From an uncultured Gammaproteobacteria bacterium (lineage in GTDB: Bacteria; Patescibacteriota; Microgenomatia; UBA8517): 64,000 bases of DNA. Location: assembly GCA_964599625.1 (NCBI GenBank), contig CAZRGC010000004.1, forward strand, positions 139,705 through 203,704, in the 5' to 3' direction. Of the stretch, positions 1 to 44,395 are shown piece by piece. The notes beneath the pieces were generated by a model that made no database searches, was not told the origin of the DNA, and saw nothing but the letters and a program-made list of their open reading frames with translations. Position 1 is the stretch's first letter. Each line of letters starts with the position of its first letter. Position numbers and translations under genes: made by a program.

Positions 1-1273
1 ATATCACAAAATATAAGTAAAAAATAAGCGCAGGAACACCATGCTCGGCAGCAACCGATAAATAAAAGTTATGTATATCGAGCGGAATTTTCCCAAAAAT
101 GCTTTGCGGTAGTGTCTCAAGTCCCTCCGGAACTACCATTTTTTTACCCACACCCATGACAAAATTTTTTGAAATCAATTCCGCTGAAGCAACAAACTGT
201 TCCACTCTAAATGTTCCTCCTCCCTGATCAAAGGAGTAGAAAGATTTTTGAAATCTAGGCAAAACAAAATATATGAGTATCGCGATTAGTGGAACAGCAA
301 AGAAAAAAGTATATTTGGGCAACTTAATATTAATTTTGAATTTCTTTACCTTTTCGACAATATAAAGAATGGTTAACAATCCGGCCAAAAAACCCATCCA
401 AGAGCTTCTGCTAAGAGTGAGGAGAAAAATAAGCATAGCAGGGACCACTGCAATAAGAATTAGTGAATTTCCCGAAACTAAATAGTAAACGATCAAAAGT
501 AGTAGCCAAATTGAAAATTCTGCCCCCAATGAGTTGGCATGAAAAAAAGTCCCTACAGGTCTATAAGACAAGTTTCGCTCATCCGGTTGATTCCCCCAAT
601 ATGCAGAGCCCGCTTGATATACAAGACTATTTCCTGTAAGAGAATTGGCTGTAAATTGTTTTACTGAAAGAATTGTTTCAAAAATACAAAGCGCGGCCAG
701 CATGAATATAAAAATTTTATAGAATTTTTGACCATCCTTAATATATGCCTGAAGATAAAAATATAGAATATATGGGTTAAGACTCAAAAGGTTGAAGGCC
801 AAAGATAGCCCAGGTTTTTTGGAAACAAAAAGATCGGACAAAATGGTCCAGGTTATATAGATAATCAGAAGATAACTGTGTTTGTAGAAGTCTTTTAGTA
901 ATAACTTTTTGTTAACCAGATCCCTAACGATTATAAACAGCATGATTGCTGCAAAAACGTTTGACGGCGTCACGACAAGGTATGCCAGAAGTCCGTCCTC
1001 AAAATATATAGGGTCGTATATTCCTCCGGGGATAAGCTCTATTACATATGTTTTTCCGATATAAAGAACCGAACTTATCAAAAAAGTAATCAAAAGGGCG
1101 AATTTATAGTTTTTTATTCTAAAGTTTAAAAATAAAAAAAGCAGTACGAATGCCGCCACAATAAACTTGTAACTGGGACTAAATAACCAAACTGTCAGGT
1201 AAAAGATGAGTGTGGTTAAAAAAATGAAAACATTGTTATCCTTGGTGTCTACTTTTTTCGACAGACTTTTCAA
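1..1273 (-). CDS. O-antigen ligase / Wzy_C-domain polytopic membrane protein (partial; C-terminus runs off window start)
   Basis: Hand translation of the minus strand gives a >400-aa multi-TM protein with the Wzy_C/WaaL-like loop motif LTLSRSSWMGFLAGLL. There is no ATG; the likely start is TTG 1271-1273 or GTG 1310-1312. It is absent from the ORF track because of the non-ATG start and truncation. Confidence 0.5.
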   Translation of the reverse strand, partial: MKSLSKKVDTKDNNVFIFLTTLIFYLTVWLFSPSYKFIVAAFVLLFLFLNFRIKNYKFALLITFLISSVLYIGKTYVIELIPGGIYDPIYFEDGLLAYLVVTPSNVFAAIMLFIIVRDLVNKKLLLKDFYKHSYLLIIYITWTILSDLFVSKKPGLSLAFNLLSLNPYILYFYLQAYIKDGQKFYKIFIFMLAALCIFETILSVKQFTANSLTGNSLVYQAGSAYWGNQPDERNLSYRPVGTFFHANSLGAEFSIWLLLLIVYYLVSGNSLILIAVVPAMLIFLLTLSRSSWMGFLAGLLTILYIVEKVKKFKINIKLPKYTFFFAVPLIAILIYFVLPRFQKSFYSFDQGGGTFRVEQFVASAELISKNFVMGVGKKMVVPEGLETLPQSIFGKIPLDIHNFYLSVAAEHGVPALIFYLYFVI

Positions 1274-1382
1274 ACTGTTAATAAAATGTGATTGTGTTAG
1301 ATAACTATTCACTTCTTTTTAGATTAATTTCATAGATTATAATACATATGATTTTGGATGATCTTGAGCATAAGTTAATAGT

Positions 1383-2471
1383 ATGAAAATTGGAATAGAT
1401 GGACTATTGTTTACTACTAAGTTTCCGTGTGGCACCAGAAATTATGCCGAAAAACTTGTCGCAAATTTAGCACGAATTGACAAAAAAAACGAATATTATA
1501 TTTTTGCGACCAAAGATATAACAGTCCCTAAAAGTAAAAGTTTTCATTTTATAAAAATTAAAAGCAGACTTCCGATTTTCAAGCGCCAGATAATCCTACC
1601 CGCAGTTGCAAAAAGGTATGACATAGACCTATTCCATTATTTGGAACCATTCGGGTCGCTCTTCAACACTCATGGTTCTATAATAACTACGGTTCACGAC
1701 TACAATCTTGGCTATACTTACCCTTATATTAAAAGCTTTTTTAGAAGGGTTAATGGTGAAATATTGAGAAGCTTTACCCTAAGGCGTTCAAAATATTTTA
1801 TTACCGATACAAACAACATAAAGAAGGAGTTAAATAACAACGGCTATTCTCAAAAAATCTTTAATATTTATCTAGGAGTAGACGCAATATTCAAGCCGGC
1901 AAAAGTCGGAAATAGAAAAAACAAATATATATTGGCAATGGCGGATTTTGCACCAAGAAAAAATATTAAAAACACGCTCAAGGCTTTTAGCTTGATTCAC
2001 GATAGACTACCGAAACTTAGCATCAAAGTAATAACAACTAATCAAAAGGCTAAAGAAAGGATCTATCGTGAAGCAAAATGCCTAAAAATAGCCGGGAAAG
2101 TTGATGTTTTAGAAAACGTAGATGACAAACGTTTGGCATCAATGTACAGAAATGCTGAATGTTTCGCCTACCCATCGTTGTATGAAGGGTTTGGCTTACC
2201 AATTTTGGAAGCGATGGCGTCGGGTTGCCCCGTTATAACTTCTGATTTTGGGGCCATGAAAGAAATTTCCGGAGGGGCAGCGGTTCTTGTAGACCCCAAC
2301 GATCCAGGAAGTATATCGGCAGCAATCGTAAAATTAGTTAATAACCCCACATTTAGGATGAGTAAGGTGAAATCAGGTATAAATAACGCAAAACGATTTT
2401 CTTGGAAAAATACGGCTAAAGAAACACTTAACGTATACAACTATGCATACAAACAACTTCAGAGTGAATAA
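1383..2471 (+). CDS. glycosyltransferase family 1 (GT4-type)
   Basis: C-terminal EX7E-type motif YEGFGLPILEAMASGCPVITSD typical of GT1/GT4 retaining glycosyltransferases. Confidence 0.85.
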   Translation: MKIGIDGLLFTTKFPCGTRNYAEKLVANLARIDKKNEYYIFATKDITVPKSKSFHFIKIKSRLPIFKRQIILPAVAKRYDIDLFHYLEPFGSLFNTHGSIITTVHDYNLGYTYPYIKSFFRRVNGEILRSFTLRRSKYFITDTNNIKKELNNNGYSQKIFNIYLGVDAIFKPAKVGNRKNKYILAMADFAPRKNIKNTLKAFSLIHDRLPKLSIKVITTNQKAKERIYREAKCLKIAGKVDVLENVDDKRLASMYRNAECFAYPSLYEGFGLPILEAMASGCPVITSDFGAMKEISGGAAVLVDPNDPGSISAAIVKLVNNPTFRMSKVKSGINNAKRFSWKNTAKETLNVYNYAYKQLQSE

Positions 2472-3249
2472 AAAGTCAGGCAGGGTATTTTTTTATATCT
2501 TAATAAGAGGTTGGAAATGTTACGAAAACTTTGATCAATGCATAGATTCTGTACTTAATCAGACTTACACAAATTTTAAGATAATTTTTGTGGATGATAA
2601 CTCTAACTACACAAAGAAACAAAAGCAACATATTGCAAACAAATTAGAAGGGCACATTGTAGTTTTTAACTCTGCAAGGAAATATGCAATTTACAATCAG
2701 TACCATCTTATTCACAAGTTCGCCGATAATGACGATGCCGTTATAGTTAATCTGGACGCCGATGACCGGTTGTTGAATAAAAACGTTTTGTCATATCTAG
2801 GCAAAATTTACACAAAATACCCAAAATGCAACTTTACATATGGTGAGTGCTTGATTGAAGATGAAAATGGAGTTTCTAAAAACGTTTCCGGTAAGCTTCT
2901 GGAACATGCAAATCAAAAGTATCCACCTGATGTTGTAAATAAAAAGGCATACAGAAAGTTTCCTTTTCTGCCACTCCACCCACGAACATTTAAGGTCAGG
3001 ATGTTTAAAAAGATTAAAAAAGAGGATTTCAAACGTTCTGATGGATCATGGTTGAGATTTGCCGAAGATCAGAGTGTTTTCTTCCCGCTTCTGGAGATGA
3101 ACATAGAAGGGCTTTTGGTGATCAAAAAACCACTTTACATTTATAATGCCTCAAATACCAAATCTGATGTAAAGATAAATACACTCGCACTCTTGAGAGA
3201 CGAACTCGAGATTCGTAGAAAAAACATATATGAAAACATTGATATCTGA
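2443..3249 (+). CDS. glycosyltransferase family 2
   Basis: CIDSVLNQTYTNFKIIFVDDNS and a DxD (NLDADD) motif; start uncertain (overlaps the upstream gene by 29 nt). Confidence 0.7.
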   Translation: MHTNNFRVNKKSGRVFFYILIRGWKCYENFDQCIDSVLNQTYTNFKIIFVDDNSNYTKKQKQHIANKLEGHIVVFNSARKYAIYNQYHLIHKFADNDDAVIVNLDADDRLLNKNVLSYLGKIYTKYPKCNFTYGECLIEDENGVSKNVSGKLLEHANQKYPPDVVNKKAYRKFPFLPLHPRTFKVRMFKKIKKEDFKRSDGSWLRFAEDQSVFFPLLEMNIEGLLVIKKPLYIYNASNTKSDVKINTLALLRDELEIRRKNIYENIDI

Positions 3250-3643
3250 TAAAACGATTACTGTAGGTACAACAAAGGTTAAATTTTTGAGAAATATAAC
3301 CGCGTTCTTGCAGTTTGTTTTTCACCGTGTTGGGTTGCAAAAAAAAATATATTTGTCAGATGGATATTACGGATGGAATAAAATGTTGGTTGAAGATATA
3401 AACCGTTTATACAAAATTGCTCGAATTGAAGATCTTGGCTTGGGTCTTCTGACAGAAAAAATATTGATAAAAAAAGTGGTAGACATTCAGCACAAGATCA
3501 ATCTGAATAGTTTTTCTAAAGACCAACTATACTCTGCCATGTGGACACTGGTTTTTTGCGACTATGCATCGGAGATGTCTAAAAAGAACATCAAGAAGAT
3601 ACTTCCGTCTGATTTCCCCGTATATTTTGGAGCCCTGGGATAG
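3230..3643 (+). CDS. hypothetical protein
   Basis: 137-aa ORF between glycosyltransferase genes; no recognisable motif. Confidence 0.3.
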   Translation: MKTLISDKTITVGTTKVKFLRNITAFLQFVFHRVGLQKKIYLSDGYYGWNKMLVEDINRLYKIARIEDLGLGLLTEKILIKKVVDIQHKINLNSFSKDQLYSAMWTLVFCDYASEMSKKNIKKILPSDFPVYFGALG

Positions 3644-4718
3644 ATAAAACATCACTCAGCTTCTTTTGAATACCGTTGTTTTTCAGAATTTTGAGAGTTT
3701 TTGCTTTCGAAATTTTAACACTCGAAGCGCTTTCGCAAACCTTTTTGATTGTATTAACAAAGTCCTCTTTTGTTTTATATGTGTATATTGGTATTTTTTC
3801 TTTGAGCTCTTTTGAGATTTTTAGTTCCGGACATATTGTGGGAACGCCCATACTCAGATAGTCATATATTTTTATCGGGTTTGAATATAAGTTGAAAATA
3901 TCACTCCGGATATAGGGAATAATTCCAGCCCCGCACTTTGGAAGTTTACTTATTTTTTTAATACTTAAATACTTAACGTTTTTGCAACTAACTATTTTCC
4001 CCCACAACTTACCGCGTTCTACATCGGCATCTTCTTGATAATATTTGTTTAAATATACTTCTCCGGCAAAGTAGAAGGTATAATCCGGTAAATTTTTAAC
4101 AGCGTATAAAACCAACCTGTAGTCTATCCTTTGCGATATTCCACCATAAAACAATACCGATTTTTTGTTTTCAGATTTTTGGTCATATATTTGAGGACTT
4201 TCTATATATCCAGATGACACAATCTGCACATTATTGTTTAATGCAGATAACAACTTTTGCATATATCTTGTGTTTGTCAAAACAATATCCATCTCTTCAA
4301 TAAATTTTTTACGTAAATCAAACTCACCTTTATGAATATCGGGGCAATCAAAAATTTTTAGGTCTGAAGGTATTTTGGAATAAATTGGGTCATAATATGC
4401 AGAAGTTGTAATCAGTATTATTTTATGTCTCAAAATTAACTTTTTAAACCATAATAGACAATTGAGGATCAAATACATAAGTTTGTTTTTTGGGTAATTG
4501 TCCCAAACAAAAAAGTTCTTTTTTCCAAGGGCCAAGAGTGGAATGTTGGCAATAAAACGGTATGGAAATTTGGATGACACAAAACTTTTGGTTGTCGGGA
4601 GGCTTACAAAAAAAATGTCATGTTTTTTTGATAATTTTTTTGTAAAAAAAACCCTGTGATGTGGTGGGTATCCGTATGGAACTACAGAGCAGTATACAAT
4701 AGTATTTCTTTTGGTCAT
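3591..4718 (-). CDS. glycosyltransferase, GT1-like (GT-B fold)
   Basis: C-terminal half resembles the GT1 donor-binding domain (VLFYGGISQRIDYRL...GAGIIPYI...IYDYLSMGVPTI). Confidence 0.55.
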   Translation of the reverse strand: MTKRNTIVYCSVVPYGYPPHHRVFFTKKLSKKHDIFFVSLPTTKSFVSSKFPYRFIANIPLLALGKKNFFVWDNYPKNKLMYLILNCLLWFKKLILRHKIILITTSAYYDPIYSKIPSDLKIFDCPDIHKGEFDLRKKFIEEMDIVLTNTRYMQKLLSALNNNVQIVSSGYIESPQIYDQKSENKKSVLFYGGISQRIDYRLVLYAVKNLPDYTFYFAGEVYLNKYYQEDADVERGKLWGKIVSCKNVKYLSIKKISKLPKCGAGIIPYIRSDIFNLYSNPIKIYDYLSMGVPTICPELKISKELKEKIPIYTYKTKEDFVNTIKKVCESASSVKISKAKTLKILKNNGIQKKLSDVLSIPGLQNIRGNQTEVSS

Positions 4719-5644
4719 TTATTAATTGGCTTCTTATAAAAACCGTAAATATAACCGCAAAGAAATATAAAATTCAAAAGTAACATTGCCGGGACGTACT
4801 TCAGACGAGGCTTTCCTGCTCTGTAGGGGAAGGTGGAAAAAAAGTTTTTAGTTGCAAAAATACACCTATTTGTGAAGGTTGTTTTTTTTGGTAGGAGCAA
4901 TGTTAGGTGATATGTGCTTTTACCCAAACCGTAATAGAACCACTGTTTCACAAAACCCTCAAAGGTGGTTCTGTAGTCGTGTTTAACGCTTATTTTTTTA
5001 TGAAAGTAAATATGTGCCCCGTGTTTGACAAGTTTTTTGGAAAAATCATGATCCTCCGATGAATAAGCAAGTCTGTTATCGAATTTTATATTGTTTTTGA
5101 CAAGGAAAGATTTTTTGTAAACAGAATTCCCCGCTGGGACACTGAATACAATTCCTTCGTAGTCGAATTCGTGGCCCGATATTGAATTCCACACCCCATT
5201 CCAATAGTTATTTCCGTGTTTTGGTATTTTTGGTCCACACAAAACATCTAGTGTGGGATCTGACAAAAAGATATCTCTTACGTTTGCCACCCAATCTGCT
5301 GGCATGTATTCGTCATCGTCGATAAAAGCAAAAAAATTCGATTTCACACTTCTTAGAGCTTCATTTCTGGAAAATGCCAAACCTTTGTGTGGAACTTTAA
5401 TGTGTTTAAAATTAATTTTGCGTTTCTTAATAATCGAACTGTATTGTTTAACATCATCCGAGGATACATTGTCTGATGCATCAATTACAAAAACATTTTG
5501 TGGTTTTACTTTGTTGGTTGCGATTCTGCTAAGACATGACTTTAGTTGGGGAACCCTGTTTCTAGTAATTATAGCTATATCTATTTTGAATTTAGTCATA
5601 CTTATCAGCTTTAACCTTTCTTTTGGAATATTTCTCAAGAACAC
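4715..5644 (-). CDS. glycosyltransferase family 2
   Basis: IAIITRNRVPQLKSCLSRI...VFVIDASDN and a DDDEY motif; GT-A fold. Confidence 0.75.
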   Translation of the reverse strand: MFLRNIPKERLKLISMTKFKIDIAIITRNRVPQLKSCLSRIATNKVKPQNVFVIDASDNVSSDDVKQYSSIIKKRKINFKHIKVPHKGLAFSRNEALRSVKSNFFAFIDDDEYMPADWVANVRDIFLSDPTLDVLCGPKIPKHGNNYWNGVWNSISGHEFDYEGIVFSVPAGNSVYKKSFLVKNNIKFDNRLAYSSEDHDFSKKLVKHGAHIYFHKKISVKHDYRTTFEGFVKQWFYYGLGKSTYHLTLLLPKKTTFTNRCIFATKNFFSTFPYRAGKPRLKYVPAMLLLNFIFLCGYIYGFYKKPINK

Positions 5645-6329
5645 TAACTTTACCCTCTTTTACCAGCTTTCCTTCCGAAAGCCACACTATTTTAGAACAA
5701 ATTGATTTTAGAAAACCCAAATCATGACTCACAAATATCATTGTTTTACCCGATTTTCTAAACTCATCAATTTTTTGTAAACATTTTTTTCTAAATTTTT
5801 CATCTCCAACCGATACATTTTCATCCAAGAGGTAAATATCTGCATCAGTGTGAACTACTATCGAAAATCCCAAACGAAGTTTCATTCCTTGAGAGTAAGT
5901 ATAGAAGGGTGAATCAATGAATTTGCCGATTTCTGCAAATTTCACTATTTTTGACATCTTTTCATCAACTTCTTTTTTGGACATTCCAACCAACATGCCA
6001 TTTAGAACAATGTTTTGTCTACCTGTAAGCTCCGGGTGAAAACCAGCATCAAGTTCAATTAAGGACGCAACCTTCTTTGATATTTCAACTATCCCCGAAG
6101 ACGGATAAGTTATTCCTGATATTATTTCCATAAGAGTAGTTTTTCCCGAACCGTTTGACCCGATTATTCCTACGGATTCCCCCGAAAAAATTTTAAGGCT
6201 TATGTTTTTTAACGCCCAGAAGGTTTCGTTTCCAGACCTAGAAAGAAGGCTTTCCACCAACGTTGGCTTTTCCCTGTATAAGGTATATTTTTTGGAAACT
6301 TTTTCGAGAACTACGATTGCTGTTTGCAT
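5592..6329 (-). CDS. polysaccharide/teichoic-acid export ABC transporter ATP-binding protein (Wzt/TagH/KpsT-like)
   Basis: Walker A GSNGSGKTTL, Walker B LLDE, and ABC signature region; paired with an ABC-2 permease. Confidence 0.85.
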   Translation of the reverse strand: MQTAIVVLEKVSKKYTLYREKPTLVESLLSRSGNETFWALKNISLKIFSGESVGIIGSNGSGKTTLMEIISGITYPSSGIVEISKKVASLIELDAGFHPELTGRQNIVLNGMLVGMSKKEVDEKMSKIVKFAEIGKFIDSPFYTYSQGMKLRLGFSIVVHTDADIYLLDENVSVGDEKFRKKCLQKIDEFRKSGKTMIFVSHDLGFLKSICSKIVWLSEGKLVKEGKVSVLEKYSKRKVKADKYD

Positions 6330-6337
6330 AAATTATT

Positions 6338-7129: not shown

Positions 7130-7133
7130 AAAA

Positions 7134-8486: not shown

Positions 8487-8494
8487 AAGCTATT

Positions 8495-11153: not shown

Positions 11154-12181
11154 AGCAAAAATTCATAGGTATTGGCCTGCTTATTGTTTCTAGTGTTTTT
11201 TCTGTTGTCGTTTTGGATATGACAATAGGCAAATTTATGGTAAATAAGCTTCTTGGACACTCCTGGTTAAATTGGAGAAACAATGAAGACAATTTTAGTA
11301 ACACAGGTTGTTATAAGTTGTCTCCAACTTTGGGGTTTGAGCCTGTGTGGGGAAGTTGCAACTACCCAGGTTTGGGTTTTATAAATAACCTAGTTGGCGA
11401 CAAAGAGGTTTTGGGAGTTAATTCAGGGCAAAAAAATATATTGATTATCGGAGACTCAAATACTGCCCGGTCAGGATATGCGCCCGAGCTTGAGAATCGG
11501 CTTAACAGTTATTTATCCCAAAACGGTTTCAGGGTCAAGATAACCAAAGTGGGTGTAGAGTCTTACAACACAAAACAAGAGGTTGGTCTCCTTAAAGAAA
11601 GCTTATACAAGTTGTCACCTGACTTATTGGTTTTGCAGTTTACCGAAAACGATTTTGACTTTTCTCCCGTTGCCGTAAAAGTTGATGAAAAAATTGTATA
11701 TTTTTCTTCTCAGGGAGAAAAATCTGAAGAAAAAAACCCTTTTTTATTTAAAAACAGTAACCTTTACAGACTTTTTACTCTCAGAAATTTATTAATTGAC
11801 AAGACTGATATTCCGCCCGGAAAGATTAGCAATCAAAGATTTTGGGACAATCATTTTTGGGACGCAAAGGTAGAGAATATGGACAAGACTATGGGCGAAC
11901 TAAAATCGTTTGTTGATGACAATCATATTAATATAGTTTTTTTGGTATATCCCAAATTTGACATGGGCCCTCCAACCAGAGAAGCAAAATCCATGCTTGA
12001 TATTCTAGACAAATACCAGATTCCATATTTGGACCTGCGTTTGTACACAGAACCTTTTGGGGGCCCCTACAGTTTCCATAGCAGCTTTGAAGATGGAAGC
12101 AATGATTCCGTACACCCACAAAGAAATTTTGATACAATTGTCTCTGAAGTTTTGTTTGGCTATATATCGAAAAATTTATAG
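11150..12181 (+). CDS. SGNH/GDSL hydrolase with N-terminal TM anchor
   Basis: Block I ILIIGDSNTARSG and block V DSVHP. Confidence 0.65.
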   Translation: MKQKFIGIGLLIVSSVFSVVVLDMTIGKFMVNKLLGHSWLNWRNNEDNFSNTGCYKLSPTLGFEPVWGSCNYPGLGFINNLVGDKEVLGVNSGQKNILIIGDSNTARSGYAPELENRLNSYLSQNGFRVKITKVGVESYNTKQEVGLLKESLYKLSPDLLVLQFTENDFDFSPVAVKVDEKIVYFSSQGEKSEEKNPFLFKNSNLYRLFTLRNLLIDKTDIPPGKISNQRFWDNHFWDAKVENMDKTMGELKSFVDDNHINIVFLVYPKFDMGPPTREAKSMLDILDKYQIPYLDLRLYTEPFGGPYSFHSSFEDGSNDSVHPQRNFDTIVSEVLFGYISKNL

Positions 12182-12185
12182 GATA

Positions 12186-12338
12186 ATGTTTTCATCGATT
12201 AAGCAATTGTTGATTCTTTTAAAAAGCTCGAAAAAATACTGGTTGGCTCCCGTGGTTATTGCAATTTTGGTCGGCGCCATCCTGGTTGTAGTAGCCGAAG
12301 TTTCACCTGTCCCACTATTTATCTATCCTTTAATATGA
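12186..12338 (+). CDS. small membrane protein (50 aa), SxtK/DUF5989-like by context
   Basis: MFSSIKQLLILLKSSKKYWLAPVVIAILVGAILVVVA..., single TM. The track ORF 12057-12338 is trimmed to this ATG because the upstream part overlaps the SGNH gene. Confidence 0.4.
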   Translation: MFSSIKQLLILLKSSKKYWLAPVVIAILVGAILVVVAEVSPVPLFIYPLI

Positions 12339-12532
12339 AAAATGTTGTAAAAAGAGTCAATCGTGCGATCTCAACTTTTGTACTTGTTACCGTTTACCTT
12401 TTTGTTGTAGGTCTTATTCATTTTTTCTACAAAATCTATATCTCAACAACAGGAAAAAATAAAAAAACTGAGTGGAAGACGACCGAATTACTCTCTGATG
12501 TAACCTGGGAAAGCCTGAGTTCTCCTTACTGA
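12335..12532 (+). CDS. small membrane protein (65 aa)
   Basis: Single hydrophobic segment; translationally coupled (overlapping stop/start) with both flanking genes and directly upstream of the carbamoyltransferase. Confidence 0.4.
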   Translation: MKNVVKRVNRAISTFVLVTVYLFVVGLIHFFYKIYISTTGKNKKTEWKTTELLSDVTWESLSSPY

Positions 12533-12533
12533 G

Positions 12534-14225
12534 ATGTACATTTTAGGTATTTCTGCATATTACCACGACAGCGCTGCTGTATTGGTTAAAGATGGTGTTC
12601 CTGTGTGCGGGTTTGAGGAAGAGCGTTTTACCAGGATAAAACACGATAACACATTCCCCGCAAATGCAATTCAGGCGTGTCTTAAAAAAGAAAAGATAAG
12701 CATAAATAACATAGATTTTGTAGCGTATTACGAAAAACCCCTTCTTAAATTTGAACGAATTGTAGAAAACTTTGTTCGTACATATCCATATTCTTTAAGT
12801 AATTTTATAACAGCCTTACCTGAGTGGCTTGGGGAGAAAATTAATGTGGAAAATAACATAAGATCAATTACCGGTTACAAAGGAGATATAAAGTATGTTC
12901 CCCACCACCTGTCACACGCATCCTCTGGCTTTTATACCTCTCCTTACAAGAAATCGGCGGTATTGACTGTTGACGGCATAGGTGAATATGAGACTACAGT
13001 TCTTTGGCTTGGGTCCGAAAAAGGTTTTACCAAAATAAAGTATTTAGATTTTCCCGATTCATTAGGATTACTATATTCGACATTTACATCCTTTCTGGGC
13101 TTCAAGGTTAATAGTGACGAATATAAAATGATGGGGCTTTCGGCTTATGGGAAGCCAAAATATAAAAAGAAAATTCTAAAAATTATAAAGGTGGGAGGTA
13201 ACGGAAGTTTCTCGTTAGATATGAGCTTTTTTGAGTTTCATAAAAGCACTACCATGTGGAGCCGTAAATTTGAAAAGCTTTTTGGTAGTCCGAGACAGTA
13301 CGGCACAAAAATTGCGCAAAAGCACAGAGATTTGGCCGCCAGCATACAATCTGTAACTGAGGATATTTACTTTATGATTCTCAACCACCTGCAAGAAATC
13401 ACAGGTGAAACAAATTTATGTATCAGTGGAGGTGTAGCCCTTAATTCTTTGGCAAACGGGAAGATTTTTGAAAGAACTAAATTCAAAAACATACACAACC
13501 TGGGTTGCGCGGGAGATAGTGGGGGCGCAATTGGCGCAGCTCTGTACGTTTACTATTTATCAACACAAAATAGAAAAAGCTACCCCAAAGCTTTCTCGTT
13601 GGCTCTGGGTAACGAGTATGGGGACGTTGAGGTAGAAAGTATTTTGAGAGAAAGGGGTTCCAAATATGTAAGTTATCGTTCAGAAAAAGAATTATTGCGT
13701 TTTGTGGCTAATAAGTTGGCTCAAGATAAAATAGTCGGTTGGTTTAATGGCTCAATGGAGTTTGGGCCTAGAGCCTTGGGGAAAAGATCTATTTTGGCAA
13801 ACCCGAGAATGAGGGCTATGAAAAAACTTATGAACAAGATTAAAAGACGTGAGGCATTCAGACCTTTTGCGGGATCGGTCCTCGAAGAAAAGGTTTTTGA
13901 TATGTTTAAGATACCTGATACACAAACAAACTTTTCTTATATGAATTTTTGTTTCAAGACAAAAAAAGAATTTGCAAACAAGATTTCGGCCATTGTTCAC
14001 AAAGACGGCACTTGTCGGATACAAACAGTTGGAAAACAGGATGGAATTTATTACAGATTAATTAATGAATTTTGTAGAAATACTGGTATTCCATGCTTGT
14101 TAAACACAAGCTTTAACGTTAATAATGAGCCAATAGTGGAAAGTCCTTTGCAAGCCATAAACGACTTTGAGAACAATCCGTTTGACTATTTGGTTATAAA
14201 TAGGTTTATTATGTCTAAAAAATGA
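12534..14225 (+). CDS. carbamoyltransferase (NodU/CmcH family)
   Basis: N-terminus MYILGISAYYHDSAAVLVKDG and HHLSHAASGF are hallmarks of the NodU/CmcH/HypF-like carbamoyltransferase family. Confidence 0.9.
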   Translation: MYILGISAYYHDSAAVLVKDGVPVCGFEEERFTRIKHDNTFPANAIQACLKKEKISINNIDFVAYYEKPLLKFERIVENFVRTYPYSLSNFITALPEWLGEKINVENNIRSITGYKGDIKYVPHHLSHASSGFYTSPYKKSAVLTVDGIGEYETTVLWLGSEKGFTKIKYLDFPDSLGLLYSTFTSFLGFKVNSDEYKMMGLSAYGKPKYKKKILKIIKVGGNGSFSLDMSFFEFHKSTTMWSRKFEKLFGSPRQYGTKIAQKHRDLAASIQSVTEDIYFMILNHLQEITGETNLCISGGVALNSLANGKIFERTKFKNIHNLGCAGDSGGAIGAALYVYYLSTQNRKSYPKAFSLALGNEYGDVEVESILRERGSKYVSYRSEKELLRFVANKLAQDKIVGWFNGSMEFGPRALGKRSILANPRMRAMKKLMNKIKRREAFRPFAGSVLEEKVFDMFKIPDTQTNFSYMNFCFKTKKEFANKISAIVHKDGTCRIQTVGKQDGIYYRLINEFCRNTGIPCLLNTSFNVNNEPIVESPLQAINDFENNPFDYLVINRFIMSKK

Positions 14226-14836
14226 AAAAGAGTTACTACCATGATTCACTAACGAAAAGGTTGTTGGACTTAACTGTGTCGTTGGCTTTGCTTATATTTT
14301 TTTTGCCATTTCTGTTGGTTATTGCTGTTTTGTTAATGTTGACTCAGGGGCCGCCACTTTTTTTTATCCAAAACAGGACTGGAAAAGATGGAAAGGTTTT
14401 TAAAATGATCAAGTTCAGATCAATGATTCCCAACGCCGACAAAATGAAAAACAAACTCGCTTCATTAAATGAGTCTGACGGACCTGTTTTTAAGATCAAA
14501 AACGACCCTAGATTTACCTTTGTAGGAAAGTGGCTGTCGGGGTCGGGTTTAGACGAACTCCCACAGATATTTAATGTTCTAAAAGGAGATATGAGTATAG
14601 TTGGCCCTCGTCCGCTACCTGTTTACGAAGAAAAAAGACTCAAAAGAACACACCGTCAAAGAAACCTGATAAGACCAGGAATTACAAGCGGATGGGTTGT
14701 GAATGGTTCTCATTCACTTAGTTTTTCAAAATGGATGAGGCTGGATATTGAATATATTAAAAACGGCAATTTTTCTACAGATATATTTATCATTATTAAA
14801 ACAACCATTTTTATGTTGAGTAAATATTGGCAGTGA
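14222..14836 (+). CDS. undecaprenyl-phosphate sugar phosphotransferase (WbaP/ExoY-type bacterial sugar transferase)
   Basis: KRLLDLTVSLALLIFFLPFLLV...FKMIKFRSM...DELPQIFNVLKGDMSIVGPRP, the classic PF02397 signature. Confidence 0.9.
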   Translation: MKKSYYHDSLTKRLLDLTVSLALLIFFLPFLLVIAVLLMLTQGPPLFFIQNRTGKDGKVFKMIKFRSMIPNADKMKNKLASLNESDGPVFKIKNDPRFTFVGKWLSGSGLDELPQIFNVLKGDMSIVGPRPLPVYEEKRLKRTHRQRNLIRPGITSGWVVNGSHSLSFSKWMRLDIEYIKNGNFSTDIFIIIKTTIFMLSKYWQ

Positions 14837-14863
14837 CCCCCAAAAAAAACGCTTTAATAACTT

Positions 14864-16156
14864 ATGGTTACCAAAAAGTTAATATTTTTAGCTTTAATTC
14901 TGATTTTGACAGGTATAATTCTGGTATCTTATATATCAAAATTGCAATCCGTACCGTTTTTTGTAGACGAGTATCATTTTTTACGAAAAGCTTATTACTT
15001 CAATCTTTTTTTTGTTGACAATGACAGATCGAATGCAAAATTCTACACTGAGTTTGAGGCCGCACAACCCAAAATTGGAATATACATATATGGTGCCACT
15101 TTGTATTTATATGGCGTCAAAGACGTAAACACATTCCTGAGCAGATTTGAAATAAAAAGTTGGCCAAAAAGTGTTGGTCCGCTGATGACAAGTTTTGGCG
15201 GTACAAAGTTGTCCAACTTTCCGAGTCACATGAATGACTTTGTGAAAGTTATCTTTAACCAAAGGAAAGTTTCTCTTTTTTTTACCTTCTTGTCATTTGT
15301 GTTGATTTTTTTAATTTGCAGTAAGGTGATGGGTTATCTGTATGCCTTTTTGACAACATATTTGGTAAGTTCGAACACACTTGTAGTTTATACAAATTCG
15401 GTAGCAACTACAGATTCGATGTTAATGTTTTTTACGTTCTTATGTTTTTTTGTCACTATTAAGTTAACAGAGGCGCTTAAGAACAATTCAAAAAAAATAT
15501 ACCAATATTCTTTTCTGTTGGGGATTTGCATGGCTTTTGCAGCGGGTGTAAAGGTGACTGGCATTGTTATAGTTTTTTACGCATTATGTTTTCTTGCCGT
15601 TTCTATATGGTCTTCATGGAACGATATAGTAAAACGCGCAGCCATCTTAAAGGGTCTTTTAGTTACAATTGTTAGCTTCTTCGTAGTATTTGTTTATTTT
15701 CACCCCTTTTTGTACAAAGAAACTTTGGAAAATTTTATACTAATGTTCGTCGGACGATATAAAGGTATTGCCGACGCACAACTCCAAAATACCGTCGCAG
15801 ATGTTCCCACACGTGTTCAAGCTTTAAAACTAATTTTAAAGGAAACACTTTTGCCCGGTGGTTTATATACAAACTTTGAACTTGGATACGTGCCTATCGA
15901 TTTGGTGCTATTTTTGTTTGGAGCAACGTTATTAATCAAGAATTTATTTCAAAAGTATAAATTTTTTGGCCAACCACCTCTTGAGGCGATGGTCTTAATT
16001 TTGTTTTTGCTGACATTGTCAGCACTTGTTATGTATTTGAAGGTCAACTGGCCACGTTACTTTATGCAGACCGAAATATTAATATCGATGGTTCAGTGTT
16101 ATGGGTTGGCAATTTTTTTGGCATGGTACAGAAAGTTGATGGTAAAATTATTTTGA
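14864..16156 (+). CDS. GT-C glycosyltransferase, PMT/ArnT-like (GT39/GT83-like)
   Basis: Multi-TM protein with an N-terminal-loop DE motif, FFVDEYHF (compare PMT VFDEVHF, ArnT DExRY). Confidence 0.55.
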   Translation: MVTKKLIFLALILILTGIILVSYISKLQSVPFFVDEYHFLRKAYYFNLFFVDNDRSNAKFYTEFEAAQPKIGIYIYGATLYLYGVKDVNTFLSRFEIKSWPKSVGPLMTSFGGTKLSNFPSHMNDFVKVIFNQRKVSLFFTFLSFVLIFLICSKVMGYLYAFLTTYLVSSNTLVVYTNSVATTDSMLMFFTFLCFFVTIKLTEALKNNSKKIYQYSFLLGICMAFAAGVKVTGIVIVFYALCFLAVSIWSSWNDIVKRAAILKGLLVTIVSFFVVFVYFHPFLYKETLENFILMFVGRYKGIADAQLQNTVADVPTRVQALKLILKETLLPGGLYTNFELGYVPIDLVLFLFGATLLIKNLFQKYKFFGQPPLEAMVLILFLLTLSALVMYLKVNWPRYFMQTEILISMVQCYGLAIFLAWYRKLMVKLF

Positions 16157-16208
16157 AGACTGTAGGAGGTGTTGTGTTGATTGTTTGTCTTACAGTTGTT
16201 AGACTGAA

Positions 16209-17108
16209 ATGATGACAAAGTATAACAGTAAAAATGAAAGTGGACAGGCTCTCGTTTTGGTACTCCTTTCGTTGGCGGTTGTTCTAACTCTTGTGCTTTT
16301 TGTACTGGCCAGGAGTGTTACAGATGTTGCAGTTTCATCGCGCTCCGAAGACGCTGTAAGGGCATTCTCTGCTGCAGAGGCCGGGGTGGAACAGGCATTG
16401 ATATTAGGCACAGGTGGAACTAGTCAGATTGGAAATGCAACATTTACAAGCACTGTTACCAACTTTGCTTCAGGTCAGCAGTCTTTGGTTTATCCTATCA
16501 CCCTGTCACCGGGCGAGACTTCGACACTTTGGTTTATGAATCATAGTGCTTCGGGTGCGCCTGTTTGTGACGCAACCCATCCATGTTTTACAGGTAGAAA
16601 CCTCCAAGTTTGTTGGGGGCGGGAGGGCACAAGCAGCTCCTCTTCTACCACACCTGCAATTGAGCTTACAATTGTGTACGAGACAACCCCTGGTAACCCT
16701 GCCACAGCAAGAATCGCTCGGGCCGCATTTGATCCTAACTCAGCAAGAACAGCCACAAACAACTTCGCTAGTTCGGATCCCGGGACTTGTACTATAAACG
16801 GTGAAGTTTTCGCATTTCAAAAGACGGTTGATCTATCTACTTTGGGGATTGGAGCAGGAACGTACAATACTGCTGGTGGTCTAAATTATGCAAGGACCAG
16901 AATTTTTTACAACTCTGATCAGAACCATGATGTTGGATTTAACGTTGCTTTGGTTGGTGGGTCTTCTCTTCCGACACAAGGCCTCCAAGTTGACTCAAGC
17001 GGCACTGCTGGACAAAGTCAAAGAAGATTGAACGTTTTTCAGAGTTGGGCAGAGATTCCGAGTGACTTTGATTTTGCAATTTACAGCCCGTCTGGAGTCA
17101 GTAAGTAG
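16209..17108 (+). CDS. type IV pilin-like protein, PilX N-terminal-domain type (minor pilin/pseudopilin)
   Basis: Short polar leader ending in G, followed by a hydrophobic helix QALVLVLLSLAVVLTLVLFVLA (PilX_N-like, no Glu5). The rest is Ser/Thr/Gly-rich. Noticeably higher GC than the upstream locus. Confidence 0.6.
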   Translation: MMTKYNSKNESGQALVLVLLSLAVVLTLVLFVLARSVTDVAVSSRSEDAVRAFSAAEAGVEQALILGTGGTSQIGNATFTSTVTNFASGQQSLVYPITLSPGETSTLWFMNHSASGAPVCDATHPCFTGRNLQVCWGREGTSSSSSTTPAIELTIVYETTPGNPATARIARAAFDPNSARTATNNFASSDPGTCTINGEVFAFQKTVDLSTLGIGAGTYNTAGGLNYARTRIFYNSDQNHDVGFNVALVGGSSLPTQGLQVDSSGTAGQSQRRLNVFQSWAEIPSDFDFAIYSPSGVSK

Positions 17109-17192
17109 AAATTTAACTATGCAGACTGGCCAAAAATTGATAGTATTAATTGAGCTGCCCTTCAAGCCGTATGGGCATTTGTTTATAAACAT

Positions 17193-18203: not shown

Positions 18204-18210
18204 TTTTGAT

Positions 18211-18738: not shown

Positions 18739-18742
18739 AAAT

Positions 18743-44324: not shown

Positions 44325-44395
44325 TGGACTCAGGGGGAATCGAACCCCCGTTCCATGACTGCCAGCCATGTGTCCTACCATTGAACGACGAGCCC
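44325..44395 (-). tRNA. tRNA-Ala (anticodon GGC)
   Basis: Hand-folded cloverleaf: acceptor GGGCUCG/UGAGUCC with the G3:U70 Ala identity pair, D arm GUUC-AAUGGUA-GGAC, anticodon loop CU-GGC-AG, T arm GGGGG-UUCGAUU-CCCCC, discriminator A. CCA is not encoded. Confidence 0.85.

What the first reader, a model, noticed from the sequence alone, without database searches (positions are those of the whole stretch)
1..17108. Glycan locus with carbamoyl/methyl/deacetyl tailoring and two protein-glycosylation-type enzymes, abutting the pilin gene
One locus combines an initiating phosphoglycosyltransferase, four GT-A/GT-B glycosyltransferases and a Wzm/Wzt ABC exporter (ABC-dependent pathway). It also holds a Wzy_C-domain protein, which in an ABC pathway is a ligase or O-oligosaccharyltransferase (PglL/PilO/WsaB-type) rather than a polymerase. 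A PMT/ArnT-like GT-C with a DE motif, two further polytopic membrane proteins, and NodB-deacetylase-methyltransferase, SGNH-esterase and NodU-type carbamoyltransferase tailoring enzymes are present. It ends 50 bp before a Ser/Thr-rich PilX-type pilin gene. This suggests a heavily decorated glycan (carbamoylated, methylated, de-N-acetylated) that may be transferred onto the pilin or another surface protein, not only onto lipid.
Basis: partly seen in the sequence, partly recalled or inferred. Interest (0 to 1): 0.55.

Follow-up and report, generated by a model that had tools for sequence, protein, structure and literature searches.

The report
Variable surface-glycan locus beside pilus genes
This is a real but largely conventional surface-sugar (glycan) biosynthesis locus from an uncultured ultra-small Woesebacteria bacterium; it lies next to pilus genes because that chromosomal spot often holds variable sugar genes in this group, and nothing here shows that it decorates the pilin.

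Summary
It includes a small phosphoglycosyltransferase, four GT-A/GT-B transferases, a Wzm/Wzt-type ABC-2 exporter, a Wzy_C protein, a PMT-like GT-C with an invariant D35-E36, a deacetylase-methyltransferase fusion, an SGNH protein and a NodU-type carbamoyltransferase. The locus ends 52 bp before a PilX_N-type minor-pilin-like gene.

Corrections:
- The two "further polytopic proteins" are also GT-C-type enzymes: one GtrC-type (DUF6056) and one PIG-V/PMT_2-like.
- Two small genes, one of them DUF5989, fill the apparent gap before the carbamoyltransferase.
- The locus runs at least 17 kb beyond the window start, for at least 33 kb in total.

The Wzy_C protein matches only the WaaL O-antigen ligase by profile and by predicted fold. 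It keeps the three catalytic residues shared by WaaL and PglL, and it lacks the PglL_A motif. It lies 15 kb from the pilin gene on the other strand. It is always paired with an uncharacterised DUF4330 beta-barrel protein. No Wzx flippase is visible.

Across about 22 Woesebacteria, the pilX-pilMNO block is conserved while the DNA upstream varies. Glycan genes abut the block in only some, phylogenetically scattered, genomes. The closest relative lacks the PMT-like gene.

Best reading: an ABC-dependent, GT-C-decorated envelope glycan, ligated to an unknown non-LPS acceptor. Pilin glycosylation is neither supported nor excluded.

The parts
1..1312 (-). WaaL-like Wzy_C membrane protein. The first 437 of 497 aa lie in the window. 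The full length is P0001, read from contig L002.
   Evidence: PF04932 E 6.4e-15. Full-length sequence. The family profile hits only WaaL 7TPG, E 4.6e-8. AlphaFold pLDDT 93.7; the only significant PDB fold match is 7TPG. R302 and R369 are invariant and H414 nearly invariant, aligned to WaaL R215/R288/H338.
1383..2471 (+). GT4 (GT-B) glycosyltransferase
   Evidence: PF00534 E 4e-31
2443..3249 (+). GT2 (GT-A) glycosyltransferase
   Evidence: PF00535 E 3.5e-12
3230..3643 (+). 137-aa protein of unknown family
   Evidence: No family match. It is called as a gene on independent contigs.
3591..4718 (-). Probable GT-B glycosyltransferase (weak call)
   Evidence: Only NCBIfam TuaH, E 5e-10, residues 180-336. 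No Pfam or PDB sequence hit.
4715..5644 (-). GT2 glycosyltransferase with one C-terminal hydrophobic helix
   Evidence: PF00535 E 5.5e-12. Predicted transmembrane helix 281-299. PDB sequence hits are generic GT2 enzymes, not GtrB or DPMS.
5592..6329 (-). ABC exporter ATPase, Wzt/TagH-like. It has the nucleotide-binding domain only, with no C-terminal glycan-binding domain.
   Evidence: PF00005 E 2.4e-21. Best NCBIfam matches are TagH and the galactan Wzt, all below cutoff.
6338..7129 (-). ABC-2 permease, Wzm-like
   Evidence: PF01061 E 4.3e-11. Best NCBIfam match is galactan Wzm/RfbD.
7134..8486 (-). GtrC-type polytopic glycosyltransferase (DUF6056 = GT_STM0557_N)
   Evidence: PF19528 E 2.7e-49, full length. 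The newer family name is shown. STM0557 is gtrC (PMC2909390). DD motif at residues 38-39, about 8 predicted transmembrane helices.
8495..9664 (-). PIG-V/PMT_2-like GT-C glycosyltransferase
   Evidence: PF04188 E 5.7e-7 and PF13231 E 7.6e-7. About 7 predicted transmembrane helices.
9648..11153 (+). Cytoplasmic NodB-type deacetylase fused to a SAM methyltransferase
   Evidence: PF01522 E 4e-16 and PF08241 E 2.8e-24. No predicted transmembrane helix.
11150..12181 (+). Membrane-anchored SGNH/GDSL-like esterase or acyl-modifying enzyme (weak call)
   Evidence: PF00657 E 9e-5, just below cutoff. N-terminal transmembrane helix. Orthologue in L013.
12186..12338 (+).
   Evidence: PF19451 E 2.9e-10, above cutoff. 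Conserved just upstream of the carbamoyltransferase in L013 and L039.
12335..12532 (+). 65-aa single-pass membrane protein, no family
   Evidence: ORF found. No family. Weak similarity to the ORF at the same position in L013.
12534..14225 (+). NodU/CmcH-type O-carbamoyltransferase
   Evidence: PF02543 E 4.8e-83 and PF16861 E 4.4e-63. NodU model 146 bits, far below the equivalog cutoff.
14222..14836 (+). Small initiating polyprenyl-phosphate phosphoglycosyltransferase (Bac_transf)
   Evidence: PF02397 E 4.7e-58. Matches the EPS_sugtrans/WbaP C-terminal catalytic domain.
14864..16156 (+). PMT-like GT-C glycosyltransferase with an invariant D35-E36
   Evidence: PF02366 E 5.5e-10, 39.7 bits against a cutoff of 22.7. 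D35-E36 is invariant in 7 relatives. Only 5 relatives were found in 5.8 billion proteins.
16209..17108 (+). PilX_N-type minor-pilin-like protein. It is a neighbour, not shown to be part of the glycan pathway.
   Evidence: PF14341 matches 12 of 17 orthologues. Invariant G12-Q13 and the RAFSAAEAG motif. Conserved upstream of pilMNO in Woesebacteria.
17193..19417 (+). pilM, pilN-like and pilO-like genes. These form the conserved right flank of the variable locus.
   Evidence: PilM_2 E 2e-50. Weak PilO hit. Conserved block in 21 related loci.

Best explanation
Window 1-16156 is the right-hand half of a surface-glycan biosynthesis locus of at least 33 kb. The host is a Candidatus Woesebacteria genome (Microgenomates, CPR/Patescibacteria).

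Proposed pathway (inferred from family membership unless marked otherwise):
1. The small Bac_transf enzyme starts a glycan on undecaprenyl phosphate.
2. Four cytoplasmic GT2/GT4/GT-B enzymes here, plus more GT4 and a WecG/TagA-type enzyme further left, extend the glycan.
3. Cytoplasmic tailoring enzymes modify amino-sugar residues. These are the NodB-type deacetylase-methyltransferase fusion, the NodU-type carbamoyltransferase with its DUF5989 and small-membrane-protein partners, and the PIG-L deacetylase and methyltransferase further left.
4. The Wzm/Wzt (TagGH-like) ABC-2 exporter moves the finished lipid-linked glycan across the membrane.
5. Outside the membrane, three GT-C enzymes (GtrC-type DUF6056, PIG-V/PMT_2-like and PMT-like) add branch sugars from polyprenyl-phosphate-sugar donors. 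The membrane-anchored SGNH protein edits acyl groups.
6. The WaaL-like Wzy_C protein, with its constant membrane-anchored beta-barrel partner (DUF4330), transfers the glycan as a whole to a final acceptor. That acceptor cannot be lipid A-core in this lineage. It is most likely a surface protein, a membrane glycolipid or a wall polymer.

What is shown: the gene content, the WaaL-like fold and catalytic residues, the conserved Wzy_C-DUF4330 pairing, and the synteny pattern.

The position next to pilX-pilMNO is best read as a recurrent chromosomal site for a fast-evolving, exchangeable surface-antigen locus with a conserved flank. It is not evidence for a dedicated pilin-glycosylation cassette.
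For: Gene families.

Leftward extension on near-identical contigs.

No Wzx-type gene appears in any Pfam listing of this locus or of five related loci, while ABC-2 plus ABC genes are present in three of the six (this locus, L012, L039).

The Wzy_C protein resembles WaaL:
- profile match to 7TPG only, E 4.6e-8;
- fold match to 7TPG only, probability 1.0, TM-score 0.46/0.56;
- R302, R369 and H414 align to WaaL R215, R288 and H338; the role of these residues is given in PMC3643930;
- no real alignment to K-12 Wzy.

The DUF4330 partner lies immediately downstream of Wzy_C in 6 of 6 loci. Its model has one transmembrane helix followed by beta-barrels and is not Wzz-like.

DUF6056 is the GtrC family, which glycosylates O-antigen rather than protein.

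Relatives of the PMT-like gene lie inside glycan loci (L012, L035, L039, L044).

Hypervariable locus with a conserved flank: against L013, the pil, RNase III and RecG proteins are 77-92% identical, but ABC, SGNH, carbamoyltransferase and phosphoglycosyltransferase are only 37-58% identical, and L013 has far fewer genes.

ABC-exported glycopolymers decorated outside the membrane by GT-C enzymes are an established pattern in single-membrane (monoderm) bacteria (PMC9574508). Clusters combining WbaP-type initiator, Wzm/Wzt, methyltransferase and a Wzy_C transferase are known for S-layer glycans (PMC2943079). A CPR genome lacks lipid A/LPS genes, and the CPR envelope is undefined (PMC5220378).
Against: - No acceptor has been identified. 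No LCP ligase, S-layer gene or GtrA/GtrB-type donor-forming genes were seen in the locus or in the window ORFs that were scanned. The donors for the three GT-C enzymes are therefore unexplained.
- All genes are assumed to serve one pathway, but the locus could hold two.
- Genes from 9648 to 19417 form an unbroken same-strand string with gaps of 84 nt or less. No terminator call falls in the 52-nt gap before pilX. Co-transcription with the pilus genes is therefore possible.
- A phosphoglycosyltransferase (with or without the PMT-like gene) sits directly upstream of pilX or pilM in five genomes that are scattered on a marker tree. This could reflect function rather than history.
- Three of the six Wzy_C-DUF4330 loci show no ABC exporter within 10 kb either side.
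Confidence: 0.55

Rival explanations
1. Pilin glycosylation island. The glycan, or single sugars moved by the PMT-like GT-C, is attached to Ser/Thr of the PilX-like protein or of other type IV pilins. This would parallel pilA-tfpO, pilA-tfpW and pglL-pilin gene pairs.
For: - The PMT-like gene ends 52 bp before pilX on the same strand, with no terminator call.
- A phosphoglycosyltransferase or PMT-like gene directly precedes pilX or pilM in the window, L013, L025, L027 and L036. These genomes are not one clade.
- PilX is 22.7% Ser+Thr, with a poly-Ser loop.
- A WaaL-like enzyme in a lineage without LPS needs another acceptor.
- Adjacency of O-oligosaccharyltransferase and pilin genes is a known predictor of the target (PMC3643930).
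Against: - The Wzy_C gene is 14.9 kb away on the opposite strand and has no PglL_A motif.
- Its orthologous modules lie in loci without pil genes.
- The PMT-like gene is missing in the nearest relative L013.
- L025, L027 and L036 keep the glycan genes but have no pilX at the junction.
- About 15 Woesebacteria keep pilX-pilMNO with unrelated genes or pilin/pilC genes upstream.
- The Ser/Thr-rich loop is present regardless of the neighbouring genes.
- PilX is a minor, tip-type pilin rather than a major pilin. In Saccharibacteria, PilX proteins are adhesins and their glycosylation has only been predicted.
Confidence: 0.15
2. Two juxtaposed pathways. One is an ABC-exported wall polymer (TagGH/TagA-like), attached to peptidoglycan by an LCP enzyme encoded elsewhere. 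The other is a separate lipid-linked oligosaccharide handled by Wzy_C-DUF4330. In this reading the GT-C enzymes join or decorate the two chains, as in the lactococcal and enterococcal dual-chain rhamnose-rich wall polysaccharides.
For: - The Wzy_C-DUF4330-methyltransferase-PIG-L-GT4 module travels as a unit. It occurs both with an ABC exporter nearby (this locus, L012, L039) and without one (L011, L037, L038).
- L013 and L025 have the ABC exporter and phosphoglycosyltransferase but no Wzy_C within 10 kb.
- A WecG/TagA-type GT26 lies further left.
- The dual-chain and GT-C models are established in monoderms (PMC9574508).
Against: - Only one initiating phosphoglycosyltransferase is visible in about 34 kb, and there is no Wzx for a second chain.
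- No LCP gene was seen in the window ORFs scanned.
Confidence: 0.2
3. The Wzy_C protein is a Wzy-type polymerase, like TuaE in the Bacillus teichuronic acid operon, and DUF4330 is a new kind of co-polymerase.
For: - The Wzy_C Pfam family includes polymerases.
- NCBIfam gives weak TuaC/TuaG/TuaH-like hits for the neighbouring glycosyltransferases.
- Some related loci carry two or three Wzy_C paralogues (L011, L038), which would fit a polymerase plus a ligase.
Against: - No Wzx flippase or Wzz-type protein is present in this locus or in five related ones.
- Profile and fold match WaaL only, with no meaningful alignment to K-12 Wzy.
- The DUF4330 model has one transmembrane helix plus beta-barrels, unlike the two-helix coiled-coil Wzz proteins.
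Confidence: 0.08

Closest known systems
S-layer glycan (slg) clusters of Geobacillus stearothermophilus and Paenibacillus alvei (WsaP/WsfP, Wzm/Wzt, WsaB/WsfB)
   Same: The host is single-membraned. The cluster combines a WbaP-type initiating phosphoglycosyltransferase, cytoplasmic glycosyltransferases, a methyltransferase, a Wzm/Wzt exporter and a Wzy_C-domain enzyme thought to transfer the finished chain to a non-LPS acceptor (PMC2943079).
   Different: No S-layer protein gene or TPR partner was found here. Instead there is a constant DUF4330 beta-barrel partner, three GT-C enzymes and Nod-like deacetylation, methylation and carbamoylation tailoring. Sequence relatedness to WsaB/WsfB was not tested because no sequences were to hand.
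WaaL O-antigen ligase (Cupriavidus metallidurans 7TPG; E. coli K-12 WaaL)
   Same: It is the only solved structure matched by profile (E 4.6e-8) and by fold (probability 1.0). The equivalents of the R215/R288/H338 catalytic residues are conserved. It follows an ABC exporter in the pathway logic.
   Different: TM-scores are only 0.46/0.56, with 12% identity. The protein is about 80 residues longer, with an extra beta-hairpin in the first outside loop. The lineage is not expected to make lipid A-core. It has an obligate DUF4330 neighbour.
Rhamnose-rich cell-wall polysaccharide loci of streptococci, lactococci and enterococci (rgp/gac/cwps/epa), and the mycobacterial galactan Wzm/Wzt route
   Same: The backbone is exported by an ABC-2 transporter and then decorated outside the membrane by GT-C-fold enzymes. 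The loci are variable (PMC9574508). The best NCBIfam matches for the permease and ATPase here are galactan Wzm/Wzt and TagH.
   Different: No rml genes, GtrA/GtrB- or GacI/J-type donor-forming genes, or LCP ligase were seen. A WaaL-like enzyme is present, which those systems do not use.
Pilin O-glycosylation systems (PglL-pilin, TfpO/PilO-PilA, TfpW-PilA)
   Same: A glycosylation-family membrane enzyme sits on the same strand directly beside a pilin-like gene. TfpW is a GT-C enzyme next to pilA (this is from my own knowledge and was not checked here). PglL and TfpO are Wzy_C enzymes.
   Different: The Wzy_C gene is not adjacent and lacks PglL_A. The neighbour is a minor, tip-type PilX-like protein, not a major pilin. 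The adjacency is not conserved in relatives.
Nod-factor tailoring set (NodB, NodS, NodU, NodI/J)
   Same: The same combination appears here: a NodB-type deacetylase, a SAM methyltransferase (weak NodS hit, E 2e-5), a NodU-type carbamoyltransferase and an ABC-2 exporter.
   Different: This locus builds on a polyprenyl-phosphate carrier, starting with a phosphoglycosyltransferase. It has no NodC or NodA. The NodU model scores far below its cutoff (146 against 1000 bits).

Membership tests
ABC-transporter-dependent (Wzm/Wzt) glycan assembly pathway | Adjacent ABC-2 permease and ATPase genes inside a glycosyltransferase locus | tested here: met
   PF01061 and PF00005 at 7129..5592. Best NCBIfam matches are galactan Wzm/Wzt and TagH, all below the equivalog cutoffs.
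ABC-transporter-dependent (Wzm/Wzt) glycan assembly pathway | No Wzx flippase or Wzz partner for the same glycan | tested here: met
   None appears in the Pfam listings for about 34 kb of this locus. The rest of the genome was not available.
WaaL-type O-antigen ligase | Wzy_C domain and WaaL fold | tested here: met
   PF04932 E 6.4e-15. 7TPG is the only profile hit and the only significant fold hit.
WaaL-type O-antigen ligase | Conserved Arg/Arg/His (E. coli R215, R288, H338) | tested here: met
   R302 and R369 are invariant and H414 is at least 90% conserved in 122 relatives, and they align in register. PglL shares these residues, so they do not tell the two families apart.
WaaL-type O-antigen ligase | Acceptor is lipid A-core | not testable with these tools
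   The genome beyond the window was not available. One CPR genome lacks lpxC and kdsA (PMC5220378), so this acceptor is unlikely.
PglL-type protein O-oligosaccharyltransferase | PglL_A motif (PF15864) flanking the Wzy_C domain | tested here: not met
   The precomputed Pfam for full-length P0001 and for its relatives lists PF04932 only. The scan of the window part at E<=1 also gave Wzy_C only.
PglL-type protein O-oligosaccharyltransferase | Gene next to its pilin target (seen in 21 of 31 predicted PglL genes; frequent but not obligatory) | tested here: not met
   The Wzy_C gene starts at 1312 on the - strand and pilX starts at 16209 on the + strand. Orthologues are not near pil genes.
PMT / GT-C protein O-mannosyltransferase (GT39) | PMT domain with an acidic DE motif in the first outside loop | tested here: met
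   PF02366, 39.7 bits against a cutoff of 22.7, covering residues 128-275 only. D35-E36 is invariant in 7 relatives.
PMT / GT-C protein O-mannosyltransferase (GT39) | Full PMT architecture (about 11 transmembrane helices; eukaryotic forms also have MIR domains) and a protein acceptor | tested here: inconclusive
   The protein is 430 aa with about 7 helices by a crude hydropathy scan and no MIR hit. The acceptor cannot be told from sequence. From my own knowledge, the same Pfam family also includes the lipid A-modifying enzyme ArnT.
GtrC-type O-antigen glucosyltransferase (DUF6056 / GT_STM0557_N) | Full-length match to PF19528 | tested here: met
   E 2.7e-49, profile positions 4-440 of 442.
GtrC-type O-antigen glucosyltransferase (DUF6056 / GT_STM0557_N) | Partner gtrA flippase and gtrB polyprenyl-phosphate glucosyltransferase in the same cluster | tested here: not met
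   No GtrA family hit in the locus. The GT2 with a C-terminal helix does not match GtrB or DPMS structures. Such partners can be encoded elsewhere, as CflA is in L. lactis.
PilX/GspK-class minor pilin | PilX_N N-terminal domain with a hydrophobic helix | tested here: inconclusive
   The query scores 17.3 bits against a cutoff of 25.5. However, 12 of 17 orthologues match, the best at 1.1e-5, and G12-Q13 and the AAEAG motif are invariant.
PilX/GspK-class minor pilin | Encoded with type IV pilus assembly genes | tested here: met
   It lies directly upstream of pilM-pilN-pilO in 16 related loci. In several of them it follows a run of small ORFs that are probably pilins (not verified), or pilC.
NodU/CmcH O-carbamoyltransferase | Carbam_trans_N and Carbam_trans_C domains | tested here: met
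   E 4.8e-83 and 4.4e-63. It is not a NodU equivalog: 146 bits against a cutoff of 1000.

The most novel reading that the evidence does not exclude
The WaaL-like protein and its constant DUF4330 beta-barrel partner form a previously undescribed glycan-transfer machine of CPR bacteria. It would place an ABC-exported, carbamoylated and methylated glycan on type IV pilus or other surface proteins. On this reading, the repeated placement of the phosphoglycosyltransferase/ABC module directly upstream of pilX-pilMNO, on the same strand, reflects co-expression of pilus assembly with pilus glycosylation in these host-attached, ultra-small bacteria.
Probability: 0.12. Interest if true: 0.7.

Novelty: new variant of a known kind. 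Interest (0 to 1): 0.4.

Why it matters
The cell envelope of CPR/Patescibacteria is essentially undescribed (PMC5220378). Their type IV pili and surface glycans are thought to mediate attachment to host cells, and pilin glycosylation in the group has only been predicted (PMC11623550).

This locus gives a concrete, testable parts list for a CPR surface glycan. Two features stand out:
- A WaaL-like ligase in a lineage without LPS, always paired with an uncharacterised DUF4330 protein.
- Three outside-acting GT-C enzymes.

The synteny pattern also shows a surface-antigen locus that is exchanged much faster than its pilus-gene flank. That points to diversifying selection, for example from phages or hosts. 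The practical payoff is modest unless the acceptor is identified.

Tried and rejected
1. Low G+C as a sign of a horizontally acquired island. G+C is 34-37% in the locus and about 40% elsewhere, but third-codon-position G+C is the same in the glycan and pil genes (0.31-0.38). The difference reflects amino-acid composition, so this was not used as evidence.
2. Single-sequence searches of the PDB with the Wzy_C, PMT-like, DUF6056, PIG-V-like and GT-B-like proteins gave nothing useful.
3. Fold search with the DUF4330 model gave no significant match. The best hits were LetB MCE domains (E 0.017) and EF-Tu beta-barrels, so no function could be assigned.
4. Searching for a GtrB/DPMS-type polyprenyl-phosphate sugar synthase. 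The GT2 with a C-terminal helix matches only generic GT2 structures.
5. A metagenome scan with the PMT-like subfamily returned only three loci, two already known. The subfamily is rare: 5 relatives in 5.8 billion proteins.
6. A search for canonical major-pilin N-termini (G-F/M-T-L-I-E type) across the whole window found none.
7. Literature search for DUF4330 found no papers.
8. Cluster look-up for names or accessions of the key proteins returned nothing.
9. The promoter/terminator scan was uninformative, with counts at or below the shuffled expectation.
10. hhalign against single E. coli sequences is weak by design (probability 6.9% for WaaL). It was used only to show which residues align.

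Full report
OBSERVATION

On the minus strand:
- a Wzy_C protein cut by the window edge (1312..1; PF04932, E 6.4e-15);
- a GT-B-like protein (4718..3591; only a TuaH-like hit at 5e-10);
- a GT2 (5644..4715);
- an ABC ATPase (6329..5592) and an ABC-2 permease (7129..6338);
- a DUF6056 protein (8486..7134; E 2.7e-49);
- a PIG-V/PMT_2-like protein (9664..8495).

On the plus strand:
- GT4 (1383-2471) and GT2 (2443-3249);
- a Polysacc_deac_1 + Methyltransf_11 fusion (9648-11153);
- a weak SGNH/GDSL protein (11150-12181);
- a carbamoyltransferase (12534-14225; E 5e-83 and 4e-63);
- a 204-aa Bac_transf phosphoglycosyltransferase (14222-14836; E 5e-58);
- a PMT-like GT-C (14864-16156; PF02366, E 5.5e-10) with D35-E36.

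The next gene (16209-17108) starts 52 bp later. It is followed by pilM and by pilN- and pilO-like genes.

Three amendments are needed:
- The "two further polytopic proteins" are themselves GT-C-type enzymes. DUF6056 now carries the Pfam name GT_STM0557_N, and STM0557 is the gtrC O-antigen glucosyltransferase of Salmonella (PMC2909390). The locus therefore has three GT-C candidates.
- The apparent 350-nt gap before the carbamoyltransferase holds two tightly packed small genes. One is a 50-aa DUF5989 protein (12186-12338; E 2.9e-10) and the other a 65-aa single-pass membrane protein (12335-12532). The DUF5989 gene recurs upstream of the carbamoyltransferase in L013 and L039.
- The window cuts the locus.

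ORIGIN AND FULL EXTENT

PilM relatives place the window in Candidatus Woesebacteria (Microgenomates, CPR). The best hit is 92% identical.

Near-identical assembly contigs (7 mismatches in 5401 nt) extend the locus leftwards. They add the full-length Wzy_C protein (497 aa, P0001), a DUF4330 protein, a methyltransferase, a PIG-L deacetylase, a GT4, a sulfatase-fold protein and a PAPS-reductase-like protein. Further left come a 670-aa phosphodiesterase-fold protein, another GT4, a WecG/TagA-type GT26 and a sugar epimerase/dehydratase.

The locus is therefore at least 33 kb. No Wzx-type flippase, Wzz or LCP gene appears in any of these listings. To the right of pilMNO, the window ORFs that were scanned are mostly housekeeping genes: RNase III, RecG, tRNA synthetases, a class A PBP, BipA and DinB.

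THE WZY_C PROTEIN

It belongs to a small subfamily: 551 representatives at E<=1e-3 among 1.84 billion proteins.

- A profile built from 122 members matches a single PDB sequence, the WaaL O-antigen ligase 7TPG (E 4.6e-8).
- An AlphaFold model (pLDDT 93.7) has 7TPG as its only significant fold match (probability 1.0, TM-score 0.46/0.56).
- R302 and R369 are invariant and H414 nearly invariant. They align with E. coli WaaL R215, R288 and H338.
- The same profile gives no meaningful alignment to the K-12 Wzy polymerase WbbH.

Schulz et al. (PMC3643930) show that these three residues are shared by WaaL and PglL, and that the PglL_A motif (PF15864) separates the two. Precomputed Pfam for the full-length protein and its relatives lists PF04932 only.

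So the protein is WaaL-like in fold and chemistry. It is not a PglL-family member and shows no similarity to the E. coli K-12 Wzy. Sequence alone cannot name its acceptor.

A CONSERVED MODULE

In six of six loci examined, the Wzy_C gene is followed immediately by a DUF4330 gene, and usually by a methyltransferase, a PIG-L deacetylase and a divergent GT4.

The DUF4330 protein is better conserved than Wzy_C (35-54% against 31-40% identity). Its model (pLDDT 87) has one N-terminal transmembrane helix followed by beta-barrel domains, with no significant structural relative. It does not look like a Wzz co-polymerase.

ABC-2 and ABC genes accompany the module in three of the six loci (this one, L012, L039). 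A PMT-type GT-C also accompanies it in those same three, and a carbamoyltransferase in this one and L039. No pil genes are recognisable near the module outside this genome.

SYNTENY WITH THE PILIN GENE

Twenty-one related loci carry pilM-pilN-pilO followed by RNase III and RecG, and 16 of them have the PilX-like gene directly upstream. What lies further upstream varies:
- a run of small ORFs that are probably pilins, or pilC, in L015, L028, L029 and L031-L033;
- Pfam-less minus-strand genes in L014 and L016-L018;
- glycan genes in only a few genomes.

The glycan cases are:
- L013: ABC, methyltransferase, SGNH, DUF5989, carbamoyltransferase, phosphoglycosyltransferase, then pilX. There is no PMT-like gene, and there are no glycosyltransferases, GT-C enzymes or Wzy_C within 10 kb.
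- L025 and L027: the phosphoglycosyltransferase lies directly before pilM, with no pilX.
- L036: phosphoglycosyltransferase, PMT-like gene, then pilM, with no pilX.
- L020: a 6.4-kb insert containing a carbamoyltransferase, between pilX and pilM.

On a neighbour-joining tree of five flanking proteins, these genomes are scattered and their sister genomes lack the arrangement.

Between the window and L013, the flanking pil, RNase III and RecG proteins are 77-92% identical. The shared glycan proteins are only 37-58% identical. This is the signature of a fast-evolving or exchanged surface-antigen locus held between conserved flanks.

The PilX-like family has an invariant G12-Q13 and the PilX_N-type RAFSAAEAG motif, and 12 of 17 members match PF14341. 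Its Ser/Thr-rich loop lies in a variable segment and is Ser/Thr/Ala-rich whether or not glycan genes are adjacent. In Saccharibacteria, PilX proteins are tip adhesins whose glycosylation has only been predicted (PMC11623550).

MECHANISM

The best-supported model is an ABC-transporter-dependent envelope glycan.

1. Synthesis starts on undecaprenyl phosphate through the small phosphoglycosyltransferase.
2. GT2, GT4, GT-B and GT26 enzymes extend the chain in the cytoplasm.
3. Amino sugars are tailored in the cytoplasm by de-N-acetylation, methylation and O-carbamoylation. The deacetylase-methyltransferase fusion has no predicted transmembrane helix.
4. A Wzm/Wzt exporter moves the glycan out. Its best family matches are the teichoic-acid TagH and the mycobacterial galactan Wzm/Wzt.
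5. Three GT-C enzymes and a membrane-anchored SGNH protein decorate the glycan outside the membrane.
6. The WaaL-like enzyme, with DUF4330, transfers the whole glycan to an acceptor.

These steps are inferred from family membership. They follow two established patterns in single-membrane bacteria: S-layer glycan clusters (PMC2943079) and rhamnose-rich wall polysaccharides, which are ABC-exported and GT-C-decorated (PMC9574508).

The acceptor is unknown. Lipid A-core is unlikely, because a studied CPR genome lacks lipid A genes (PMC5220378).

Two gaps remain. No GtrA/GtrB-type donor-forming genes were found. It is also not shown that all the genes serve one polymer.

RIVALS

- Pilin glycosylation keeps some weight. 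The genes from 9648 to 19417 form an unbroken same-strand string, with no terminator call before pilX. The phosphoglycosyltransferase-pilM junction also recurs in scattered lineages. The comparative data argue against a dedicated pilin system.
- A two-pathway mosaic is plausible, because the ABC/phosphoglycosyltransferase module and the Wzy_C/DUF4330 module occur separately in other genomes.
- A polymerase role for Wzy_C is least supported.

NOVELTY AND VERDICT

All the catalytic families are known, and so is the overall logic. Four things are new:
- the setting, a CPR genome without LPS;
- the constant WaaL-like/DUF4330 pair;
- the trio of GT-C enzymes combined with Nod-like tailoring;
- the placement of a hypervariable glycan locus against the pilus assembly genes.

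I rate it a new variant of a known kind, of moderate interest (0.4). The ligase-type reading of Wzy_C is supported. The pilin-target idea is neither supported nor excluded.

Noticed in passing
window 12186-12338 (+) and 12335-12532 (+): Two small membrane-protein genes sit between the SGNH gene and the carbamoyltransferase. One is DUF5989 (50 aa) and the other a family-less 65-aa protein. They are packed tightly: the first starts 5 nt after the SGNH stop codon, the two overlap by 4 nt, and 1 nt separates the second from the carbamoyltransferase. DUF5989 recurs before the carbamoyltransferase in L013 (6342-6491) and L039 (2943-3092). From memory, this resembles the small proteins found beside SxtI-type carbamoyltransferases; that was not checked here.
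   Followed up: partly
L002 5211-7524; L011, L012, L037, L038, L039 around position 10000: A conserved module recurs in six metagenomic loci: divergent GT4 | Wzy_C - DUF4330 - methyltransferase - PIG-L deacetylase | GT4. In some loci the methyltransferase and PIG-L are fused. The DUF4330 partner has no literature and no structural relative.
   Followed up: yes
window 1-19417 compared with L013 3100-12230: Between two genomes whose pilus, RNase III and RecG proteins are 77-92% identical, the shared glycan-locus proteins are only 37-58% identical and the gene content differs greatly. This suggests replacement of the locus by recombination between conserved flanks.
   Followed up: partly
L020 3508-10001; L023 5187-9986: In two Woesebacteria, 4.8-6.4 kb of minus-strand genes are inserted between pilX and pilM. 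In L020 the insert includes a carbamoyltransferase and a methyltransferase-like gene. The pilX/pilM junction seems to be a recurrent insertion point.
   Followed up: no
L013, L017, L019, L027, L028, L032, L033 (record titles): Several genome-collection records whose pilus, RNase III and RecG blocks clearly match Woesebacteria are titled 'uncultured Gammaproteobacteria bacterium' or 'Alphaproteobacteria bacterium'. These are probably mislabelled metagenome-assembled genomes.
   Followed up: no
L045 3725-7947 (left of the window): Two alkaline-phosphatase-superfamily genes flank a PAPS-reductase/CysD-like gene inside the glycan locus. One is a sulfatase-fold protein of 489 aa with an N-terminal helix; the other is a phosphodiesterase-fold protein of 670 aa. 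They may add phosphoryl or sulfuryl substituents to the glycan.
   Followed up: no
window 23543-24634, 28813-29904, 53511-54830 (all -): Three paralogous M20-family peptidase genes lie within 31 kb. There is also a DUF6025 protein at 51821-53272 (-) and two tRNA genes at 44325-44395 and 49860-49933 (-).
   Followed up: no
window 1-16000 compared with 16000-64000: G+C is 34-37% in the glycan locus and about 40% elsewhere, but third-codon-position G+C is the same. The drop comes from amino-acid composition (Lys/Ile/Phe-rich membrane and glycosyltransferase proteins), not from foreign codon usage.
   Followed up: yes
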